A stretch of 46,150 nt of DNA from Acidobacteriota bacterium. Its GTDB lineage: Bacteria; Acidobacteriota; Aminicenantia; Aminicenantales; Aminicenantaceae. The position numbers and the translations under genes are program-made. The stretch covers positions 1 through 46,150 of the forward strand of contig JAHIPL010000132.1 in the NCBI GenBank assembly GCA_018894615.1, read 5' to 3'. The notes below the pieces were generated by a model. That model ran no database searches, was not told where the DNA came from, and worked only from the letters and a program-made list of their open reading frames with translations. This document shows, in pieces, positions 36,967 to 45,673 of this stretch (its first letter is position 1; every line of letters starts with the position of its first letter).

Positions 36967-37755
36967 ATGAAAGAAAGGGCGGACAGGCTTCTTGTCGAGC
37001 GGAATCTGGCTGAAAGCAGGCAGAAAGCCCAGGCGTTGATTCTGGCCGGCATGGTCTACGCGGATGATGTCAAGGTGGAAAAATCCGGGCAGCTCCTGTC
37101 GGTCGATAGATCCCTTCGAGTAAAGGAGTCCTTGCCTTATGTGGGGCGGGGGGGACTCAAGCTTGAGGGTGCTCTGGAATCATTCAAACTCTCCGTTTCA
37201 GGGAAAACGGCGGCGGACATCGGGGCGTCAACCGGGGGATTCACCGACTGTCTGCTTCAGCGCGGCGCTTCTTTTGTGTTTGCCGTCGATGTGGATACCC
37301 GTCAGCTTGACTGGAAACTCAGCCGGGATTCCCGCATTCAGAAGATTCAGAAAAATGCGCGCTACCTCACCTCCGGGGATTTCGACCGGCCTCTGGATAT
37401 CGTCGTGATGGATGTGTCGTTTATTTCCATTCTCAAGCTGCTTCCCGTTCTTAGGAATCTTGGTGAGGAAATAACCGTGGTTTCCCTTGTCAAGCCTCAG
37501 TTCGAAGTGGGCCGGGGCCAGGTGGGGAAAAGAGGGATTGTCAGAGATCCATCCTTGCATCGGAGTGTGCTGGCAAGCATAATAGAGAAAGCCGAACTTA
37601 TGGGATACGTCGTCCGGGATGTCGTTCCGTCACCCATCCGGGGCCAGAAGGGCAATCGGGAGTTTTTTATTCACTGGACGATGACGGGGGAGTCCCTAGA
37701 CTCCTCGACAGCTCAATCATTGATCAAGGAGGCCGTCAGGGATGATTCTGATTAA
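36967..37755 (+). CDS. tlyA: TlyA family rRNA 2'-O-methyltransferase
   Basis: S4 domain then RGGLKL, DIGASTGGFTD, DVSFIS, KPQFE, GNREF. Confidence 0.94.
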   Translation: MKERADRLLVERNLAESRQKAQALILAGMVYADDVKVEKSGQLLSVDRSLRVKESLPYVGRGGLKLEGALESFKLSVSGKTAADIGASTGGFTDCLLQRGASFVFAVDVDTRQLDWKLSRDSRIQKIQKNARYLTSGDFDRPLDIVVMDVSFISILKLLPVLRNLGEEITVVSLVKPQFEVGRGQVGKRGIVRDPSLHRSVLASIIEKAELMGYVVRDVVPSPIRGQKGNREFFIHWTMTGESLDSSTAQSLIKEAVRDDSD

Positions 37756-38587
37756 TCGGGTTGGATTTGTGATCAAACCCCACGCTCCGGACATCAAGCC
37801 GGTTCTGGACGAGGCCATTCAATACTGCCGCGCAAAAGGACTGGAATGTGTTCTCGAGAAAGATGCGGCGCGCATTCTGGGCGAGAGGGACGGAGTTCCC
37901 CGGGAGCTGCTTCCGGGTCAGGTGGACGTACTCATCGTCCTCGGAGGAGACGGCACTCTCCTCAGCGTTTCTCACCTGGCCGCCAAAAACGGGATTCCCG
38001 TGATCGGTATCAACATGGGAAGCCTTGGATTTTTGACGGAGGTGCCTCTCAATGAAATGAGACAGACCATCGATTCTTTTCTTGATGGCAATCCTCACAT
38101 CAGGAATCCCAGGCAGATGCTTGAAGTCGTTTGCAGGGGGAAAACCTATGACTGCCTGAATGATGTCGTCATCAACAAAGGGGCGCTGGCTCGGATGATC
38201 CAGTGCATCATCCGCATCGACGGTGAAGAAATCGCCCGTCTTCGTGCGGACGGCTTGATCATCTCCACCCCTACGGGATCGACGGCGTATTCCCTCTCGG
38301 CAGGAGGTCCCATTGTCCACCCCTCCATCCCGGCCATTATCATCGCACCGATCTGTCCGCATACTCTGACCTTCCGTCCCATGGTGATATCCTCCGCTTC
38401 CGAAGTCCGGGTCCAGCTTCAAAACGAGAGTGAAGAGGTTTATCTGACCATCGACGGGCAGCGGGGGGGACAAATGAATGAACAGGACGAAATTATTATC
38501 CGAAAGAGCCCGCTGGTTCTCACTCTCATTTCTTCTCCGAAAAGGAACTATTTTGATCTCCTCCACGATAAACTCGGATGGGGGTAG
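37742..38587 (+). CDS. nadK: NAD kinase
   Basis: LGGDGT, GSLGFL, NDVV, DGLIISTPTGSTAYSLSAGG. Confidence 0.96.
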   Translation: MILINRVGFVIKPHAPDIKPVLDEAIQYCRAKGLECVLEKDAARILGERDGVPRELLPGQVDVLIVLGGDGTLLSVSHLAAKNGIPVIGINMGSLGFLTEVPLNEMRQTIDSFLDGNPHIRNPRQMLEVVCRGKTYDCLNDVVINKGALARMIQCIIRIDGEEIARLRADGLIISTPTGSTAYSLSAGGPIVHPSIPAIIIAPICPHTLTFRPMVISSASEVRVQLQNESEEVYLTIDGQRGGQMNEQDEIIIRKSPLVLTLISSPKRNYFDLLHDKLGWG

Positions 38588-38592
38588 CATGA

Positions 38593-39031: not shown

Positions 39032-39954
39032 CTGAACTGCAGGATGTCATCATCATCGGTGCCGGGCCCGCCGGAATGTCGGCCGCCATATACACCGGAC
39101 GCGGCCGACTGAAAACCCTGGTGATCGAAAAAGGCATGCCGGGAGGACAGATACTGACTTCGGATTGGATCGAGAATTATCCCGGTTTCCCGGAAGGTAT
39201 TTCGCCCTTTCAGTTGATGCAGGATTTCCGAAAGCAGGCGGAAACGTTTGGAGCCGAAATCCTGACCGATTATGTCAAATCGATTGAACAATCCGATGAA
39301 GGATGGAGCATCGTCTGTCAGAATCAAACCTATACAGGCCGGACAGCCATCATTTGCACGGGATCCGATTATAAGAAACTGAAAATCCCGGGGGAAGCCG
39401 AACTGACGGGAAGGGGCGTTTCCTATTGCGCCACCTGTGATGCCGCGTTCTTCAAGGAAAAGGATATCGCTGTTGTAGGCGGCGGCGACAATGCCCTGAA
39501 AGAAGCTATTTTTTTGGCCAAATTCGGAAAATCCCTGAAAGTGATCCATCGAAGGGATCAGCTGAGGGGGGAAAAAATACTGCAGGAAAGGGTGTTTGCC
39601 CACGAGAAGATAGATGTTCTTTGGGATACGGTGATTGAAAAAATCAACGGAACAGACAAACTGGAGTCCCTGACCCTTAAGAATGTGAAAGATGCGTCTC
39701 TCAGCGAACTGAAGTTGGATGGGTTGTTTGTTTCTATTGGAACCCTTCCTAATACCGGCTTTGTGTTAAACATCGTCGACCTCGACAGATGGGGTGCGAT
39801 CAAGGTTGACGGGGAGATGAGGACATCAAGGGAGGGCCTGTATGCGGCCGGGGATGTCTCAAGTGCCTGCCCCAAACAGGTGGCGACAGCCGTCGGCAGC
39901 GGTGTCCATGCCGCTCTCTCTGTGACGGAATATCTCCAGAGTCTCGGAATCTGA
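39028..39954 (+). CDS. trxB: Thioredoxin reductase
   Basis: GAGPAG, SYCATCD, GGGDNA, HRRDQLR, AAGDV; ATGA overlap with trxA. Confidence 0.96.
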   Translation: MTELQDVIIIGAGPAGMSAAIYTGRGRLKTLVIEKGMPGGQILTSDWIENYPGFPEGISPFQLMQDFRKQAETFGAEILTDYVKSIEQSDEGWSIVCQNQTYTGRTAIICTGSDYKKLKIPGEAELTGRGVSYCATCDAAFFKEKDIAVVGGGDNALKEAIFLAKFGKSLKVIHRRDQLRGEKILQERVFAHEKIDVLWDTVIEKINGTDKLESLTLKNVKDASLSELKLDGLFVSIGTLPNTGFVLNIVDLDRWGAIKVDGEMRTSREGLYAAGDVSSACPKQVATAVGSGVHAALSVTEYLQSLGI

Positions 39955-39979
39955 AAAACAAGCCGCAGCCCGATATTCC

Positions 39980-40019
39980 GCCGGCACGGCCGAAAAAAAT
40001 CACCCTGAACCGTGCCGGC
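39980..40019. terminator. Inverted repeat between convergent trxB and comEA; possible terminator
   Basis: GCCGGCACGG/CCGTGCCGGC 10-bp stem with a 20-nt loop; no clear U-tract. Confidence 0.35.
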
Positions 40020-40030
40020 ACAGGATTGTT

Positions 40031-40357
40031 CTACTTTTTCCCTTCCCCCTCTCCGGACGCTGCGACCGTGATTCTGTCCTTGAGTTGAAGGAAAACCTTC
40101 TCCCCGATTCCTTTGACCTTCATCAGGTCTTCGATTCTTTTAAAGGGCCCGTTCTTTTTTCGAAAATCGATAATTCTTTCGGCGATCTTTTCACCGATTC
40201 GCGGAAGGCTCTGCAGCTCCGCCGCGGGGGCCGTGTTGATGTTGATTTTTGTCACTTGTTTTCCACTCTGTGCGGCGGCCGGAACGGCCGCTGCTGAGCC
40301 CAGGGCAAGGATAAAAACCAGACAGGTGAGAATGATTCGAATGCTTTTTCTGTTCAT
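40031..40357 (-). CDS. comEA: ComEA-like helix-hairpin-helix DNA-binding protein with signal peptide
   Basis: ININTA, LPRIGEKIAERII, MKVKGIGEK; hydrophobic N-terminus; AGGAGG RBS. Confidence 0.9.
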   Translation of the reverse strand: MNRKSIRIILTCLVFILALGSAAAVPAAAQSGKQVTKININTAPAAELQSLPRIGEKIAERIIDFRKKNGPFKRIEDLMKVKGIGEKVFLQLKDRITVAASGEGEGKK

Positions 40358-40379
40358 GAGTACCTCCTGTTCACCCTAT

Positions 40380-40395
40380 TGCAAGACATGGGCCA
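40380..40395 (-). promoter_or_regulatory. Sigma54 (-24/-12) promoter of comEA
   Basis: Minus strand TGGCCCATGTCTTGCA: GG-N10-GC spacing, close to the TGGCACGNNNNTTGCW consensus. Confidence 0.65.
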
Positions 40396-40411
40396 GGTGG
40401 TTTGAAAGTCA

Positions 40412-40424
40412 TAAGAGGTTGATA
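40412..40424 (-). promoter_or_regulatory. IHF binding site
   Basis: TATCAACCTCTTA is an exact match to WATCAANNNNTTR, just upstream of the -24 element. Confidence 0.6.
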
Positions 40425-40469
40425 TAAATGATGATAGGAGATATCAGGTGGTCGCGGTATGAATATATC

Positions 40470-40500
40470 CGTTGACCGACTTCCTTTTTGCATGTCAACG
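40470..40500. promoter_or_regulatory. Palindrome; candidate enhancer (UAS) for a sigma54 activator
   Basis: CGTTGAC-N17-GTCAACG, about 100-130 bp upstream of the predicted comEA start site. Confidence 0.45.
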
Positions 40501-40522
40501 AAAGGGAACGTCTGAATGGTGA

Positions 40523-41407
40523 TTAGGATCGGGGAAAGTTTTTTTTGTAGACGGAAAGCAGCTGTTTGAGATCCATGTGGGTGTATTTCTGTGTGGTGGC
40601 GAGGCTTTCATGGCCCAGCAGCTCCTGAATAATGCGCAGGTCGGCCCCCCGGCTGAGAAGATGGGAGGCGAAGGAATGACGAAGGGAGTGCGGGCTGATT
40701 TTGCGCCGAAGGGATGTCCTGTCGATGTATTTGTCCACGATCCGCTCGATGGACCGGGTGGTCAGCCGCTCCCCTCTGTAGTTGAGGAAGACCGCCCTGT
40801 CATCGATTTGACCGTTGTGCATGGATATCCGGACTTTTAGATACCGCTGCAGGCTTGTCCTGGCCATGGATCCGAAAGGAAGAAGCCGCTCCTTTTTCCC
40901 TTTTCCCATGACTCGGATGATCTCTTCAGAAAAACTGATATCTTCCAGATTGATACCCACAAGTTCACTGACGCGAATGCCGGTAGCGTACAGCAGCTCG
41001 AGGATGGCCTTGTCCCGCACGCGGATGGGCTCGTTTCCCTGCGGCAGATCCAGAAATTCCGCCATTTCATCCTCCGACAGGAAAACCGGCACGTTTTTCG
41101 GCTGTTTGGGAGTAGCCAAAATTTTGGCCGGATTTTCGCTCACCCAGCGGCGGTGGAGGCTGTACTGGAAAAATGAGCGAACAGCAGCCAGTTTTCTGGC
41201 GATGGTCGATTTTTTTTTCTTCTGTTCCACCAGCGAGGCCAGAAATCCCCGGAGGATGATGTGGTCGATCTGCCGGAAGGAGATGTTTTTCTCCTCCAGA
41301 TAACCGGCCAGCTGAAGCAGATCCCTCCGGTAGTTGTCGATGGTATGGGGTGATGCGTTCCGCTCATGTCGGAGGTGAGCCATGTACTGATCGATCTCTT
41401 GTTTCAT
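40523..41407 (-). CDS. xerC: Tyrosine recombinase XerC
   Basis: ATGIRVSEL, GKGKKER, HSLRHSFASH, LGHESLATTQKY; after topA. Confidence 0.92.
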   Translation of the reverse strand: MKQEIDQYMAHLRHERNASPHTIDNYRRDLLQLAGYLEEKNISFRQIDHIILRGFLASLVEQKKKKSTIARKLAAVRSFFQYSLHRRWVSENPAKILATPKQPKNVPVFLSEDEMAEFLDLPQGNEPIRVRDKAILELLYATGIRVSELVGINLEDISFSEEIIRVMGKGKKERLLPFGSMARTSLQRYLKVRISMHNGQIDDRAVFLNYRGERLTTRSIERIVDKYIDRTSLRRKISPHSLRHSFASHLLSRGADLRIIQELLGHESLATTQKYTHMDLKQLLSVYKKNFPRS

Positions 41408-41480: not shown

Positions 41481-43691
41481 CTATTCCTCAGGGGCGTCTT
41501 CCTTGTAATCACATTCCTCGTTTCCGCAGTAAATGGAGACCGGTTCTTTGGCCCGGGTTTTTTTCAGGAGAAATGGCCGGCCGCATTTGGGACAGGGTTT
41601 GTTCTGCGGGTCATCCCAGGTCGCGTACTTGCATTTGGGAAACCGGCTGCATCCATAGAACAGTTTTCCCCGCCGCGTTTTTCTATGAATCAGTGTTCCT
41701 TCGCAGCCGTTGTTGGGACAGGAAATGCCGGTATCCTTCGCTTCTTTTTTAATGTATTTGCATTCGGGATAATTGGAACAGGCGACAAAAGCCCCGAATT
41801 TTCCCTGTCGCTCGACCATCTGAGATCCGCATTCGGGGCAGGTTTCCTCCAGCGGTTTGCTTTCCTTTTTGATCATGCTCTGCTTGTAACTGCAGTCGGG
41901 ATACCCGGTGCACGCCTTGAATCGCCCGTACCGGCCTTCCTTGATGACCAACTGCTTTCCGCATTCCGGACAATTTTCCTCGGCCGGAATCCCCTGGGGT
42001 TTGATGCTGTCCTTCTGCATCGCCTTCTCCAGGTCCTGGTCGAGGAGGCCGTAATAGGTTTTGAGATACTCCTGCCAGTTTGTCTGTCCTTCGGCGATCG
42101 TGTCGAGAGCTTCCTCCAAGCGGGCGGTGAATTTGAATTCCATCAGATCGGGGAAGTTTTCGACCAGATAATCATTGACGAACAATCCCAAATCGGTGGG
42201 AATAAATTTTCCCTGGTCTTTGATGACATACACTCTCCCCTGAATAGTGGAAATGATGGGGGCGTAGGTGCTGGGACGGCCGATACCCCGTGCTTCCAGC
42301 TCTTTGACGAGGGTGCCTTCGGTGTACCGGGGCGGGGGTTGGGTGAAATGCTGTTTCGGATCAAGCTTCAGGAGCTTCAGGGTTTCGCCCTTTACCCCCA
42401 GTGGAAGTATTTTCCCCTCTCCGTCCTTTCTTGAAAACAGTCGCATGAATCCGTCGAACCGGATCACTTCCCCCTTGGACTTAAAAAGGAAGCGCCCGGC
42501 CCGAATATCGAATTCGGTCTCTTCGATTTTTGCAGCGCTCATCTGGGATGCCATAAAGCGGTTCCAGATCAGGGTGTAGAGGAACAGTTCATCTTTGTTG
42601 AGATAGGATTGAACGGCGTCGGGAGGGAGATTGAAGGATGTGGGCCGAATGGCCTCATGGGCATCCTGTGCCTTTTTTTTGTTTTTATAGAAACGTGGGG
42701 ATTTGGGCACATACTCCTGCCCGTACTTTTCGAGGATGGCGGCTCGCGCGGCCTCCAGGGCATCCTGTGAGATACGCACGGAATCCGTACGCATGTAGGT
42801 GATGAGGCCTTCCAGGCCGCGCTCTCCGATTTCTTTTCCTTCATAAAGCTTTTGAGCCAGGAGCATGGTTTTTCTCACGGAAAAACGTTTCGTTCGGAAA
42901 GCCTCCTGTTGAAGGGTGCTCGTGATATGGGGCGGAGGCGGGGTTTTTGTCTTGATCTTGACCTGGATGTCATCCAGAATAAAGGGCTGATTCTTCAGCT
43001 CTTCGACGATGGAGAGAGCCTGCTCTTCCTTTTCCAGATGGATCTTCTTGTTTTCGATTTTGACGAGAGAGGCATCGAACGGCGGCGGCACGGCGGCCTC
43101 GAGTGAAGCCGTGATTGACCAGTACTCCTCCTGAACAAAGGCTTTGATTTCCTTTTCGCGCTCGCAGATCAGCCGGACGGCGATGGACTGCACCCGTCCC
43201 GCGCTCAGTCCTCGTCCGACTTTTTTCCACAGGAGAGGGCTGATGAGATAGCCGACCAGCCTGTCGATAATGCGCCGCGTCTGCTGGGCGTTAAATTTAT
43301 CCTCATCGATGTGACGGGAATGCCGCAGGGCTTCGGTGATGGCGTTTATTGTGATTTCATTGAATAGAATTCTAAAAATATTAGGATTATATTTTTCCAG
43401 CACCTGCTTCAGATGCCAGCAGATGGCCTCACCCTCCCTGTCCGGGTCCGCGGCAAGAAGGACTCGGTCCACCTTCCCGGCCGCTTTCTGCAGTTCGCCG
43501 ACGACATTTTTTCGCCCGGGGATGAGTTGGTATTGGCTTTTAAACTTGTCTTCAACATCGACTCCCAGCTTTGTTTTCGGAAGATCCCGGATATGACCCA
43601 TGGAAGCCTTCACGATATAGTCTTTTCCGAGATAGCGGTTGATGGTTTTTGCTTTGGCGGGGGATTCGACGATCACCAGGGTTTTTGGCAT
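41481..43691 (-). CDS. topA: DNA topoisomerase I
   Basis: IVESPAKAKTI, DPDREGE, SAGRVQS, ITYMRTDS, GIGRPSTY, four C-terminal Zn ribbons. Confidence 0.98.
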   Translation of the reverse strand: MPKTLVIVESPAKAKTINRYLGKDYIVKASMGHIRDLPKTKLGVDVEDKFKSQYQLIPGRKNVVGELQKAAGKVDRVLLAADPDREGEAICWHLKQVLEKYNPNIFRILFNEITINAITEALRHSRHIDEDKFNAQQTRRIIDRLVGYLISPLLWKKVGRGLSAGRVQSIAVRLICEREKEIKAFVQEEYWSITASLEAAVPPPFDASLVKIENKKIHLEKEEQALSIVEELKNQPFILDDIQVKIKTKTPPPPHITSTLQQEAFRTKRFSVRKTMLLAQKLYEGKEIGERGLEGLITYMRTDSVRISQDALEAARAAILEKYGQEYVPKSPRFYKNKKKAQDAHEAIRPTSFNLPPDAVQSYLNKDELFLYTLIWNRFMASQMSAAKIEETEFDIRAGRFLFKSKGEVIRFDGFMRLFSRKDGEGKILPLGVKGETLKLLKLDPKQHFTQPPPRYTEGTLVKELEARGIGRPSTYAPIISTIQGRVYVIKDQGKFIPTDLGLFVNDYLVENFPDLMEFKFTARLEEALDTIAEGQTNWQEYLKTYYGLLDQDLEKAMQKDSIKPQGIPAEENCPECGKQLVIKEGRYGRFKACTGYPDCSYKQSMIKKESKPLEETCPECGSQMVERQGKFGAFVACSNYPECKYIKKEAKDTGISCPNNGCEGTLIHRKTRRGKLFYGCSRFPKCKYATWDDPQNKPCPKCGRPFLLKKTRAKEPVSIYCGNEECDYKEDAPEE

Positions 43692-44794
43692 TACAATTTC
43701 CTCTGATAGAATTTTCCGGGGCGTTGAAAGACGAGGTCTTTGAGTTCGAGGTGGAGCAGCGCGGACAACACCTCCGGAACGGACATGCGGCTGACTGTGA
43801 CCAGTTCATCCACGTGAACAAGGGCATCCGGTTTCAAAAGGGAGAAGAGGCTCTGTTCGGTCCCGGTGAGCCGAACGGGAGAGGCATCGTCGAGCGTGTC
43901 TTCAAAAAGGAATTCCTGCTGGATCTCCCGGGGAAGCTCTTCCACGACATCCCTCCAGGACTGAACGGGCTTGGCTCCGAGTTTGAGAAGAGTGTTGGTC
44001 CCTTGGCTGGATTTGGATGTGATATTTCCGGGGATCGCCATCACTTCCCTGTTCTGTTCCAGCGCGAGATCGGCCGTAATCAGTGAGCCGCTTTTTTCTG
44101 CCGCCTCCGTGACCACCACCACTCGCGAAAGGCCGCTGATGATGCGGTTTCTCTGAGGAAAATGATGCCGGAGGGGAGGGGATGAGAAAGGGTATTCGGA
44201 GACCACCGCGCCTCTCTGCAGAATGGTGCGAAAGAGACCGGCGTTTTCTTTGGGATATACGGTTCCCAATCCGGATCCAAGCACGGCGACTGTTTGTCCT
44301 CCTTTTACGGCGCCCCAGTGAGCGATGGAATCGATGCCGCGGGCCAGTCCGCTGACAATGACGACCCCCCTGCGGGCCAGATTGCGGGCCAGTTGTTCGG
44401 TCACCGAACGTCCGTAGGGTGACGGCCGGCGCGTGCCTACGATGGCTACGCCCAGGCTGTTGACGGCCTCAATCTTTCCGGCACAATACAGGACAAGCGG
44501 GGGATTGTCAATTTCTCGCAAGACACGCGGATATTCCGGGTCTTTTAAAAGTAACGCAGTATATCCTTTTTTATGCAGCCATTCAATTTCTTTTTTTGCT
44601 TTTTCCTGCAGATTTCCTGAACGGATGACCGCCGTCTTTTCTGAGTCAAAACCAAGCTTATGTATTTTTTCCTCTGGACATTTGAAAAAATCCGACAGAT
44701 GGGGAAAAGCCTTGCGGATGGTGTCGATCAGATAGTGATTTTCACAGAGGAGGATGCTCAGGGCGATTGAGTCGATCCGCTCCTGAGCCTCCAT
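43691..44794 (-). CDS. dprA: DNA-processing protein DprA
   Basis: AIVGTRRPS, VSGLARGID, FPQRNRIISGLS, EAAEKSGSLITA, C-terminal winged helix. Confidence 0.95.
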   Translation of the reverse strand: MEAQERIDSIALSILLCENHYLIDTIRKAFPHLSDFFKCPEEKIHKLGFDSEKTAVIRSGNLQEKAKKEIEWLHKKGYTALLLKDPEYPRVLREIDNPPLVLYCAGKIEAVNSLGVAIVGTRRPSPYGRSVTEQLARNLARRGVVIVSGLARGIDSIAHWGAVKGGQTVAVLGSGLGTVYPKENAGLFRTILQRGAVVSEYPFSSPPLRHHFPQRNRIISGLSRVVVVTEAAEKSGSLITADLALEQNREVMAIPGNITSKSSQGTNTLLKLGAKPVQSWRDVVEELPREIQQEFLFEDTLDDASPVRLTGTEQSLFSLLKPDALVHVDELVTVSRMSVPEVLSALLHLELKDLVFQRPGKFYQRKL

Positions 44795-45673
44795 TCATTT
44801 TCCGCTGCGTTCCGGCGGAATGGCAAAAATAGGGACCTGGCTGTGGGCGATGACTTTTTCCGTTGTGCTTCCCAGAAAAAACCGCTCTATTTTACTCTGG
44901 ACACAGGTGGAGATCACAATCAGATCATATTTGTTGCTCTGGGCGTAATCCGCAATTCCGAGAGAGGCGTTGATCGCCCTGGTTACATCTTCCTTGAGCA
45001 CGATGTCTTCATGCTCCTTTTTGCGCCGGGCTTTCAACTTATCCAACACGGCGTCCATCATTTTATCGAGAATCTTTGGCGGGAACTCGTAATCGTGAAG
45101 CTCGAGCACGTGAAGAAACATCAGGGCGGAATCGAAGCCCTTGGCCAGTTTCCAGGCATAGTCCCGTTCGATGTCCTCCTGCTCAGAGAAATCGGTGGGG
45201 ACGAGAATTTTTTTCATAGAAGGTTTGCGACGGCCTTTTTTTGTGAGTAGAAGGGGTACGGAGGTGTTCCTGACGACATGATTGGCAACGCTCCCGATAA
45301 AGAGTTTTTCGATGGCTGAAAGACCTTTGGATCCCATGACGATCAAGTCGGCTCCGATTTCCTCGGCCGTTTCTATGATCTTCTTGGAAGCATTTCCTTC
45401 GCTGAGGATGATATCAAAGACAATGCCCCTGGTTTTCTGTATGTCCTCCAGCTTTATCCGGGCCTCACTCTTGAATGCCGCCACCCGCTTGGAGAGTTCT
45501 CCCTGGATGACGGCCACCGTGTCGTAAAGGGCCGGGGAAAAATCAGGCGCGACATGGAGCGCGGATATTTTTGCTTTAAATGTGTCGGCGAATATCTTGG
45601 CATAGGACAGGGAATCCAGGGATTCGTCTGAAAAATCCGTGGCCCAAAGGATTTTATTGAGGAATTTTGCCAT
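44795..45673 (-). CDS. Tandem-domain universal stress protein
   Basis: Two repeats: ILWATDFS...IVMGSKG...IGSVANHV and ILVPTDFS...LGSTTEKV. Confidence 0.92.
   Translation of the reverse strand: MAKFLNKILWATDFSDESLDSLSYAKIFADTFKAKISALHVAPDFSPALYDTVAVIQGELSKRVAAFKSEARIKLEDIQKTRGIVFDIILSEGNASKKIIETAEEIGADLIVMGSKGLSAIEKLFIGSVANHVVRNTSVPLLLTKKGRRKPSMKKILVPTDFSEQEDIERDYAWKLAKGFDSALMFLHVLELHDYEFPPKILDKMMDAVLDKLKARRKKEHEDIVLKEDVTRAINASLGIADYAQSNKYDLIVISTCVQSKIERFFLGSTTEKVIAHSQVPIFAIPPERSGK

What the first reader, a model, noticed from the sequence alone, without database searches (positions are those of the whole stretch)
40363..40500. Complete sigma54 enhancer architecture in front of a stand-alone comEA
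Seen, in the correct order on the minus strand: palindrome CGTTGAC-N17-GTCAACG (40470-40500), exact IHF consensus TATCAACCTCTTA (40412-40424), -24/-12 box TGGCCCATGTCTTGCA (40380-40395), then AGGAGG and the comEA ATG. Known: sigma54 promoters need an upstream activator site and often IHF bending between the two. Inference: DNA-uptake receptor expression is gated by a sigma54 activator (PilR-like), separately from the upstream dprA-topA-xerC genes. This would be a competence regulatory logic different from the ComK, SigX or TfoX models.
Basis: partly seen in the sequence, partly recalled or inferred. Interest (0 to 1): 0.62.

Follow-up and report, generated by a model that had tools for sequence, protein, structure and literature searches.

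The report
Sigma-54 enhancer promoter driving comEA
The gene for the periplasmic DNA-catching protein ComEA in this uncultured Aminicenantes bacterium sits behind a textbook sigma-54 promoter with activator sites and a DNA-bending site, an arrangement kept in about a hundred related genomes and shared with a minor-pilin operon, which points to a so far undescribed way of switching on DNA uptake.

Summary
All four elements are at the stated coordinates. Taken alone in this window, none is beyond chance. Comparison settles the matter.

- **Promoter.** In 76 of 79 distinct comEA loci of Aminicenantes, a T-G-G-C-[A/C]-[C/T]-N5-T-T-G-C-A box lies 23-30 nt before the start codon.
- **Activator sites.** In 78 of 82 loci, two 16-bp dyads (GTMAAC-N4-GTTKAC) lie 31-34 bp apart. 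The proximal dyad ends 60-66 nt before the TGG.
- **Bending site.** An AT-rich stretch lies between dyads and box. It carries an exact IHF core in either orientation in 20 of 80 loci (0.4 expected).

The genome has rpoN, about 11 sigma-54 activators and three IHF-like genes. The same dyads plus a sigma-54 box precede a minor-pilin operon (PilV-like, GspH/FimT-like), here and in relatives. The pilS-pilR-pilA locus uses a different site (TGACA-N5-TGTCA), so the activator is probably not PilR. comEC and dprA lack both elements.

No paper linking sigma-54 to comEA was found.

Verdict: a real, ordinary-mechanism sigma-54 enhancer promoter, but a new regulon.

The parts
40494..40509 (-). Distal activator (bEBP) dyad: gttccc-tttc-GTTGAC. 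Only the promoter-proximal half-site is a perfect match. Centre at about -129 from the predicted start.
   Evidence: Aligns with site 1 (GTMAAC-N4-GTTKAC) of 82 orthologous loci. The pair scores 18 of 24; the maximum in 410 shuffles was 17.
40461..40476 (-). Proximal activator dyad: GTCAAC-ggat-atattc. Only the distal half-site is a perfect match. It ends 65 nt before the TGG; centre at about -96.
   Evidence: The dyad centres are 33 bp apart, about 3 helical turns. In relatives the proximal dyad ends 60-66 nt before the TGG in 90% of loci, against 11% in shuffles.
40407..40440 (-). AT-rich IHF-type bending region, with an exact core TATCAACCTCTTA at 40424-40412. Centre at about -55.
   Evidence: One search places the core. 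In one search, the exact core lies forward at -29 or reversed at -40 from the TGG in 20 of 80 loci (0.4 expected). AT content is 71-78% from -45 to -15. The same core lies at the same place in the pilA sigma-54 promoters of relatives.
40380..40395 (-). Sigma-54 -24/-12 element TGGCCCATGTCTTGCA.
   Evidence: The columns TGG and GC are invariant in 30 of 30 relatives. The 76-locus matrix reads T100 G100 G100 C92 [A46/C51] [C55/T45] ... T88 T79 G100 C97 A84.
40369..40370 (-). Predicted transcription start, giving a leader of about 12-13 nt.
   Evidence: Inferred from the usual distance of 11-12 nt after the -12 GC.
40363..40368 (-). Shine-Dalgarno sequence AGGAGG.
   Evidence: In relatives GAAAGGAGG lies 15 nt after the box.
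40031..40357 (-). comEA: 108 aa, Sec-type signal peptide (by eye: MNRKSIRIILTCLVFILALGSAAAVPAAA|QS) plus one HhH DNA-binding domain.
   Evidence: Pfam HHH_3 6.6e-25. TIGR00426 above its cut-off. PDB relatives are ComEA structures 8dfk, 8dss and 2duy.
39959..40020 (-). Terminator-like hairpins between comEA and the convergent trxB. They make comEA monocistronic.
   Evidence: One search finds a stem plus T-run at 39972-39959. The inverted repeat TGCCGGCACGG/CCGTGCCGGCG at 40020-40010 and 39989-39979 was read.

Best explanation
This is a genuine enhancer-dependent sigma-54 promoter dedicated to a monocistronic comEA gene of an Aminicenantes (Acidobacteriota) bacterium.

Proposed mechanism:
1. Sigma-54 RNA polymerase sits as a closed complex on TGGCCC-N5-TTGCA.
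2. Two dimers of an NtrC-family activator bind the two dyads (consensus GTMAAC-N4-GTTKAC), centred near -96 and -129, and assemble the ATPase ring.
3. An IHF-like protein bends the AT-rich stretch centred near -55, so that the ring touches sigma-54.
4. ATP hydrolysis opens the promoter. A message with a leader of about 12 nt is made.
5. ComEA is exported to the periplasm, where it holds incoming DNA.

The same activator sites precede the minor-pilin operon (PilV-like, a large pilus-associated protein, and a GspH/FimT/ComGD-like pilin). The outer DNA-capture parts thus form one regulon, while comEC and dprA are outside it. The activator is one of the roughly 10 non-PilR response-regulator bEBPs of the genome. 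Its signal is unknown.

**Shown:** the sequence elements, their conservation and phasing, the presence of rpoN, bEBP and IHF-like genes, and the shared sites at the pilin operon.
**Inferred:** binding, bending, the start site, inducibility and the role in DNA uptake.
For: - **Elements** are at the exact coordinates.
- **Box conservation.** TGG and GC are invariant in 30 of 30 relatives of the same family and order, at 50-65% ComEA identity. 76 of 79 distinct loci from named Aminicenantes MAGs have the box 23-30 nt (mode 27) before the start.
- **Dyad pair.** It scores >=19 of 24 in 61 of 82 loci, against 0 of 410 shuffles. Its end is 60-66 nt from the TGG in 90% of loci, against 11% in shuffles.
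- **IHF core** at a fixed place in 20 of 80 loci, against 0.4 expected.
- **Machinery.** rpoN, 11 bEBP hits, and three HU/IHF genes that score best against IHF models.
- **Genuine sigma-54 promoters elsewhere.** The genome has about 20 high-scoring, intergenic, correctly oriented sigma-54 boxes.
- **Shared regulon.** The same bipartite dyads lie 61 nt before a GG-N10-GC box at the minor-pilin operon on contig C138. In relatives that operon has strong TGGCAC-N5-CTGCA boxes and GTCAAC-N4-GTTGAC sites.
- **Wider reach.** Other classes of Acidobacteriota show sigma-54 boxes of >=12.8 bits before comEA in 12 of 40 genomes (about 0.4 expected), and the same half-sites in L135, L136 and L139.
Against: - No transcript, start-site or binding data exist.
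- The window's own box is only mid-ranking (14.6 bits, C instead of A at -22). Each of its dyads keeps only one good half-site (PWM 7.2 and 9.7 against about 20 maximum).
- The activator is not identified. NCBIfam gives no equivalog for the seven bEBPs scanned. No bEBP gene lies near comEA in 110 loci. No autoregulatory site was found.
- The IHF-like genes stay below the curated IHF cut-offs.
- The predicted leader is very short, with the SD starting at about +2.
- No intrinsic terminator separates xerC from comEA, so read-through could add basal expression.
- My sigma-54 matrix was written from memory of the published consensus, so its bit scores are approximate.
Confidence: 0.85

Rival explanations
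1. The activator is the canonical PilR encoded in the pilC-pilS-pilR-pilA cluster, so comEA is simply part of the PilR regulon.
For: - The genome has a pilS-pilR-pilA cluster with a sigma-54 promoter before pilA.
- The comEA dyads also precede minor-pilin genes.
- PilR is the classical sigma-54 activator of pilins (established knowledge).
Against: - The pilR-pilA intergenic region carries TGACA-N5-TGTCA dyads about 22 bp apart. This holds here (GTGACAattatTGTCAC, GTGACAatatgTGTCA) and in nearly all of 29 relatives.
- comEA and the minor-pilin operon carry GTMAAC-N4-GTTKAC dyads about 33 bp apart.
- No TGACA-N5-TGTCA site is seen before comEA.
Confidence: 0.15
2. The promoter is real, but the protein serves something other than genetic transformation. 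It might capture extracellular DNA as food, or anchor it in a matrix. The regulon would then be nutritional or structural, not a competence regulon.
For: - comEC and dprA are not under the same sites.
- ComEA-type HhH domains bind DNA without sequence preference (established knowledge).
- Only the outer parts, ComEA and the minor pilins, are co-regulated.
- No transformation has ever been shown in this uncultured lineage. A full-text search found a single paper holding both 'Aminicenantes' and 'competence', and it does not address transformation.
Against: - The genome keeps comEC, dprA and a full pilB/C/S/R/A set.
- DNA taken up for food uses the same machinery, so the two uses are not exclusive.
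Confidence: 0.3
3. The conserved blocks are a sigma-70 promoter with repressor operators, or the 3' hairpin/terminator of xerC, and not a sigma-54 enhancer.
For: - The left arm contains TTGACA.
- The dyads lie only 14 nt after the xerC stop codon.
Against: - No sigma-70-type promoter was found in 39900-40700.
- In relatives the half-site is often GTAAAC/GTTTAC, which is not -35-like.
- The invariant GG-N10-GC with a TTGCA core is the sigma-54 signature.
- The RNA fold of 40440-40525 does not use the arms, has z = -1.3 and no T-run.
- The unit is kept where xerC is not the upstream gene.
Confidence: 0.04
4. The motifs co-occur by chance in one intergenic region.
For: Each motif alone is near its chance expectation in the window.
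Against: All three elements are conserved in register in about 100 loci, with 0 of 410 shuffles reaching the typical dyad score.
Confidence: 0.01

Closest known systems
NtrC at glnAp2 / glnHp2 and NifA at nifH (enteric bacteria, Klebsiella): sigma-54 promoters with upstream dimer sites and, at glnHp2 and nifH, an IHF bend
   Same: - A GG-N10-GC core.
- Two dyad sites about three helical turns apart, roughly 100-130 bp upstream.
- An IHF-type site centred near -55 between them.
- A response-regulator type activator family.
   Different: - The target is a DNA-uptake protein, not nitrogen metabolism.
- The dyad sequence is GTMAAC-N4-GTTKAC.
- The phasing is very rigid (60-66 nt from the proximal dyad to the TGG).
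- The leader is very short, about 12-17 nt.
- The host is an uncultured Aminicenantes.
PilS-PilR / sigma-54 control of the major pilin pilA (Pseudomonas aeruginosa, Myxococcus xanthus, Geobacter sulfurreducens)
   Same: - A sigma-54 promoter and an NtrC-family response regulator drive type IV pilus components.
- This genome has such a pilS-pilR-pilA unit, with an IHF core at the same position.
   Different: - The comEA and minor-pilin dyads differ from the PilR-type TGACA-N5-TGTCA sites in sequence and in spacing.
- The targets are ComEA and minor pilins, not the major pilin.
- No activator gene is adjacent.
Known competence regulators: ComK (Bacillus), ComX/SigX and SigH (streptococci and other Firmicutes), TfoX/Sxy with CRP plus QstR (Vibrio, Haemophilus)
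   Same: All gate comEA together with pilus or pseudopilus genes.
   Different: - Those use sigma-70-family holoenzymes with class I/II activators, or an alternative sigma-70-family sigma factor.
- Here the logic is sigma-54 plus an ATP-dependent enhancer-binding protein. Only the outer DNA-capture parts (ComEA, minor pilins) carry the sites.
FimT / ComGD / GspH-type DNA-uptake minor pilins (Legionella pneumophila FimT; Bacillus ComGD)
   Same: The co-regulated operon ends with a GspH/FimT/ComGD-like minor pilin (ComGD model 1.1e-08, GspH 7.1e-08, both below cut-off).
   Different: The similarity is sub-threshold, and the DNA-binding residues were not examined.

Membership tests
Sigma-54 (-24/-12) promoter | GG and GC dinucleotides exactly 10 nt apart, within a TGGCAC-N5-TTGCW-like core | tested here: met
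   TGGCCCATGTCTTGCA has one mismatch, at -22. GG and GC are invariant in 30 of 30 relatives. The consensus matrix from 76 loci agrees.
Sigma-54 (-24/-12) promoter | rpoN and at least one enhancer-binding protein encoded in the genome | tested here: met
   Sigma54_DBD at 198.7 bits on contig C341. Eleven Sigma54_activat hits above 60 bits.
Sigma-54 (-24/-12) promoter | Transcription starts 11-12 nt after the GC and depends on RpoN | not testable with these tools
The organism is uncultured.
Enhancer (UAS) for an NtrC-family bEBP | Dyad-symmetric sites, usually two, about 80-150 bp upstream and in fixed phase with the promoter | tested here: met
   Two GTMAAC-N4-GTTKAC dyads lie 31-34 bp apart and end 60-66 nt before the TGG in 90% of 82 loci. 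0 of 410 shuffles reach the typical score.
Enhancer (UAS) for an NtrC-family bEBP | A cognate activator is identified and binds the site | tested here: inconclusive
   No equivalog among the seven bEBPs scanned. No neighbouring bEBP. No autoregulatory site.
IHF-assisted sigma-54 promoter | WATCAANNNNTTR core with an AT-rich flank, between the UAS and the -24 element | tested here: met
   An exact core lies at 40424-40412. A positioned core occurs in 20 of 80 loci against 0.4 expected, in either orientation around the same centre.
IHF-assisted sigma-54 promoter | ihfA and ihfB genes present | tested here: inconclusive
   Three HU/IHF-family genes all score better against IHF than against HU models (best 98 bits, cut-off 111), but none reaches a curated cut-off.
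PilR regulon | The same binding site as at the pilR-linked pilA promoter | tested here: not met
   pilA carries TGACA-N5-TGTCA dyads 22 bp apart, here and in relatives. comEA carries GTMAAC-N4-GTTKAC dyads about 33 bp apart.
ComEA (periplasmic DNA receptor of transformation) | ComEA-type helix-hairpin-helix DNA-binding domain | tested here: met
   TIGR00426 at 71.4 bits against a 53.1-bit cut-off. Pfam HHH_3 6.6e-25. PDB ComEA structures 8dfk and 8dss at 4.5e-14 and 1e-12.
ComEA (periplasmic DNA receptor of transformation) | Export signal or membrane anchor, and a requirement for DNA uptake | not testable with these tools
   An N-terminal signal-peptide-like segment was read by eye. No signal-peptide predictor and no genetics are available.

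The most novel reading that the evidence does not exclude
Aminicenantes, and probably many other Acidobacteriota, possess a dedicated DNA-capture regulon made of ComEA and a minor-pilin set that includes a FimT/GspH-like pilin. A sigma-54 enhancer-binding protein distinct from PilR switches it on by recognising paired GTCAAC-N4-GTTGAC dyads. This would be a further class of competence master switch beside ComK, ComX/SigX/SigH and TfoX/Sxy-CRP. It would convert a general type IV pilus into a DNA-uptake organelle only on an as yet unknown signal.
Probability: 0.5. Interest if true: 0.72.

Novelty: new member of a known kind. Interest (0 to 1): 0.6.

Why it matters
How DNA uptake is controlled is known for only a few cultured model groups. 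Nothing is known for Acidobacteriota or Aminicenantes, which are abundant in soils, sediments and digesters.

This finding gives a precise and testable cis-code, made up of a sigma-54 box, two dyads and a bend site. It links ComEA to a minor-pilin operon and excludes comEC and dprA.

- It predicts that DNA capture in this phylum is an all-or-none, signal-dependent decision made by an ATP-driven activator.
- It gives a handle for finding that activator and its signal.
- It offers a promoter/activator pair that could be rebuilt in E. coli.

Sigma-54 control of comEA is absent from the large comparative survey of sigma-54 functions (PMC3162934) and from the papers my searches found.

Tried and rejected
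- **Typing the bEBPs with NCBIfam**. Seven of the bEBPs were scanned; all hit many NtrC-family models below cut-off, so nothing was assigned.
- **Activator or pilin gene within 1.2-1.5 kb of comEA** in 110 loci. None found.
- **Autoregulatory dyads within 5 kb of the 12 bEBP hits**. None convincing.
- **Exact-pattern scan for GTMAAC-N4-GTTKAC in 7 relatives**. Only the four single-contig genomes had a match, one perfect site each, at unrelated places; two sit next to transposase-like ORFs. The pattern is too strict, since the real sites carry mismatches.
- **Strongest dyad pair in the genome** (contig C250, 19-65). It lies at a contig edge, so its target could not be read.
- **Terminator/hairpin reading of the N17 palindrome.** Rejected.
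- **Sigma-70 promoter reading.** Rejected.
- **Literature hits for 'comEA' plus sigma-54 or RpoN.** Those I opened were the author name 'Comeau', or a gene table with no regulatory link.
- **Flanking bases of the dyads**. They are only weakly biased, so the idea of a shared TGTCA pentamer with the PilR site was dropped.

Full report
**1. Observation.**
- CGTTGAC-N17-GTCAACG at 40500-40470
- TATCAACCTCTTA at 40424-40412
- TGGCCCATGTCTTGCA at 40395-40380
- AGGAGG at 40368-40363
- ATG at 40357

The downstream ORF (40031-40357, 108 aa) is a ComEA-type protein:
- Pfam HHH_3, 6.6e-25.
- TIGR00426, 71 bits against a cut-off of 53.
- Its nearest solved relatives are ComEA structures 8dfk, 8dss and 2duy.
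- By eye it has a Sec-type signal peptide.

Upstream on the same strand lie usp, dprA, topA and xerC. Downstream lies a convergent trx-trxB pair, separated by terminator-like hairpins. comEA is therefore monocistronic.

**2. Is it more than chance?**
Inside this one window it is not. TGGC-N7-TTGCW occurs once against 0.70 expected. The IHF core occurs twice against 1.65 expected. The N17 palindrome occurs once against 0.09 expected.

I scanned the whole genome with a sigma-54 matrix written from memory of the published consensus, so its scores are approximate. The scan found about 20 sites of 16 bits or more. Nearly all of these are intergenic and point at a gene 25-130 nt away, so the organism clearly uses sigma-54 promoters. 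The comEA box scores only 14.6 bits, and in that range most hits are intragenic. The box alone would therefore be ambiguous.

**3. Genome context.**
The window is contig C52 of a 2.95-Mb, 371-contig MAG. The genome encodes:
- rpoN,
- eleven strong sigma-54 activator domains,
- three HU/IHF-family proteins. These score better against IHF than against HU models but stay below the curated cut-offs.

Record titles of 80 related loci name the lineage as Candidatus Aminicenantes / Saccharicenans, within Acidobacteriota.

**4. Conservation of the box.**
ComEA orthologues (50-65% identity) were found in 60 of 61 relatives of the same family and order. An alignment of 30 loci has T, G, G and G, C of the box, and the SD, as invariant columns.

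In 79 distinct loci from named MAGs, 76 carry the box 23-30 nt (mode 27) before the start codon. The column frequencies are T100 G100 G100 C92 [A46/C51] [C55/T45] G62 ... T88 T79 G100 C97 A84. This is the sigma-54 consensus with a lineage-specific A/C at -22. The window's TGGCCC is the common local variant and not a defect.

**5. Conservation of the activator sites.**
Upstream, 78 of 82 distinct loci carry two 16-bp dyads of consensus GTMAAC-N4-GTTKAC. Their centres are 31-34 bp apart.
- 61 of 82 loci score 19 or more of 24 positions. In 410 shuffles none did, and the maximum was 17.
- The proximal dyad ends 60-66 nt before the TGG in 90% of loci, against 11% in shuffles.

In the window the dyads are gttccc-tttc-GTTGAC (40509-40494) and GTCAAC-ggat-atattc (40476-40461). 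With a start near 40369, their centres fall near -129 and -96.

**6. Conservation of the bending site.**
Between the dyads and the box lies a stretch of 71-78% A+T. An exact IHF core occurs in 20 of 80 loci, against 0.4 expected. It lies either forward, starting 29 nt before the TGG (as in the window), or reversed, starting 40 nt before it. The two orientations put the core plus its AT flank over the same roughly 34-bp footprint, centred near -55. That is what a bending protein would need.

The same core sits at the same place in the pilA sigma-54 promoters of relatives.

**7. The regulon.**
I scanned the genome with matrices built from the relatives' dyads. The best complete hit is on contig C138:

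GTCAACatctGTTTCC-N16-GTCCACattcGTCAAC, 61 nt before TGGCATGATTCCGGCT.

It lies in front of an operon with three genes:
- a PilV-like prepilin,
- a 531-aa pilus-associated protein,
- a GspH/FimT/ComGD-like minor pilin.

The 531-aa protein is single-copy in 55 of 61 relatives. In most of the loci where the first pilin gene could be located, the operon is preceded by a strong sigma-54 box (TGGCACGTCTCCTGCA and the like), and many of them also show GTCAAC-N4-GTTGAC-type sites.

Other observations from the scan:
- A small secreted Cys-rich protein on C278 has a promoter of the same geometry, with two such dyads.
- A secreted protein on C206 has one half-matching dyad at 62 nt.
- comEC sits inside another operon and shows neither box nor dyads. 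The same holds for the usp-dprA-topA-xerC block.

Only the outer DNA-capture parts therefore seem to be co-regulated.

**8. Which activator?**
Contig C72 carries pilC-pilS-pilR-pilA, with a 17-bit sigma-54 box before pilA. Its upstream sites are GTGACAattatTGTCAC and GTGACAatatgTGTCA, 22 bp apart. TGACA-N5-TGTCA-type sites recur between pilR and pilA in nearly all of 29 relatives.

These differ from the comEA and minor-pilin dyads in both half-site sequence and spacing. The comEA activator is therefore most likely another of the NtrC-type response regulators. I could not tell which.

**9. Breadth.**
In other orders of the class, the dyads and the -24 half are kept, but the -12 half often reads TTGAA or GTGAA.

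In other classes of Acidobacteriota, 12 of 40 sampled comEA upstream regions hold a box of 12.8 bits or more (about 0.4 expected). Several (L135, L136, L139) show the same GTCAAC-N4-GTTGTC site and the same box-to-SD geometry.

Earlier notes of this scan had independently seen sigma-54 boxes before comEA in other genomes, and a comEA-FimT-like operon across Acidobacteriota. I treat these as leads only. My phylum sample agrees with them.

**10. Rivals.**
- **Sigma-70 promoter or operator.** No such promoter was found. The half-site is often GTAAAC, which is not -35-like.
- **Terminator or hairpin of xerC.** The RNA fold ignores the arms, has z = -1.3 and lacks a T-run. The unit also persists where xerC is not upstream.
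- **PilR as activator.** Disfavoured, as explained in section 8.
- **Function of the protein.** Whether the captured DNA serves transformation or nutrition cannot be decided from sequence.

**11. Literature.**
Full-text searches for comEA with sigma54, sigma-54 or RpoN gave no paper that links them. The hits I opened were the name 'Comeau' or gene tables. The broad comparative study of sigma-54 functions does not mention competence or DNA uptake (PMC3162934). No paper combined natural competence, enhancer-binding proteins and minor pilins.

**12. Limits.**
The start at 40369-40370, the binding of the activator and of IHF, and inducibility are all inferred from the anatomy and from established knowledge of sigma-54 promoters.

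**13. Verdict.**
The mechanism is the ordinary sigma-54/enhancer/IHF one. Its target, ComEA together with minor pilins, and its cis-code are new.

Noticed in passing
Genome contig C72:10600-14675 (not in the window; locus L197): A pilC-pilS-pilR-pilA cluster. A sigma-54 box TGGCATGCATATTGCA (10776-10761, minus strand) lies before pilA (MNKKAKG|FTLIELL). Two TGACA-N5-TGTCA dyads lie just after the pilR stop. The same layout, plus an IHF core about 25-30 nt before the box, recurs in relatives.
   Followed up: yes
Genome contig C138:2850-6135 (locus L167): A minor-pilin operon: a PilV-like prepilin, a 531-aa protein with no family assigned, and a GspH/FimT/ComGD-like pilin. In this genome the sigma-54 box ends only 12 nt before the first plausible ATG. 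The real start codon, or a leaderless message, is unresolved.
   Followed up: partly
Genome contig C278:60-475, minus strand: An ~80-aa secreted, Cys-rich protein with no family hit (MFKRSKWVRSF...). It lies behind TGGCATGCTTCATGCA, with the same box-to-SD geometry as comEA and two GTCAAT/ATTGAC dyads only 21 bp apart. It may be a further regulon member.
   Followed up: partly
Genome contig C250:19-65: The best-scoring dyad pair of the whole genome (GTAAACCGCTGTTTAC plus GACGACTTTTCTTTAC) sits at a contig end, so its target gene is unknown.
   Followed up: partly
Loci L127-L134 (other orders of the class Aminicenantia): The comEA upstream regions keep the dyads and TGGCA[CT]. The -12 half, however, reads TTGAA, GTGAA or TTGAG instead of TTGC. 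That is an unusual loss of the normally invariant -12 GC.
   Followed up: no
window 43691-45673, minus strand: usp (tandem Usp domains), dprA and topA are packed without gaps. The dprA stop overlaps the topA start at 43691, and usp ends at 44795 next to the dprA start at 44794. With xerC they probably form one transcript.
   Followed up: no
window 37736-38590: Two nearly coextensive ORFs lie on opposite strands: 284 aa on the minus strand with no Pfam hit, and 281 aa on the plus strand. Which one is the gene was not resolved.
   Followed up: no
Loci L228 (G057) and L229 (G051), around position 1501: A perfect GTCAAC-N4-GTTGAC palindrome is followed by similar sequence in two different genomes. 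L228 has a transposase-like ORF next to it (MAGVYRPRHPERTVLYLVLFHYFERF...). This looks like the end of a mobile element and is unrelated to the comEA enhancer.
   Followed up: no
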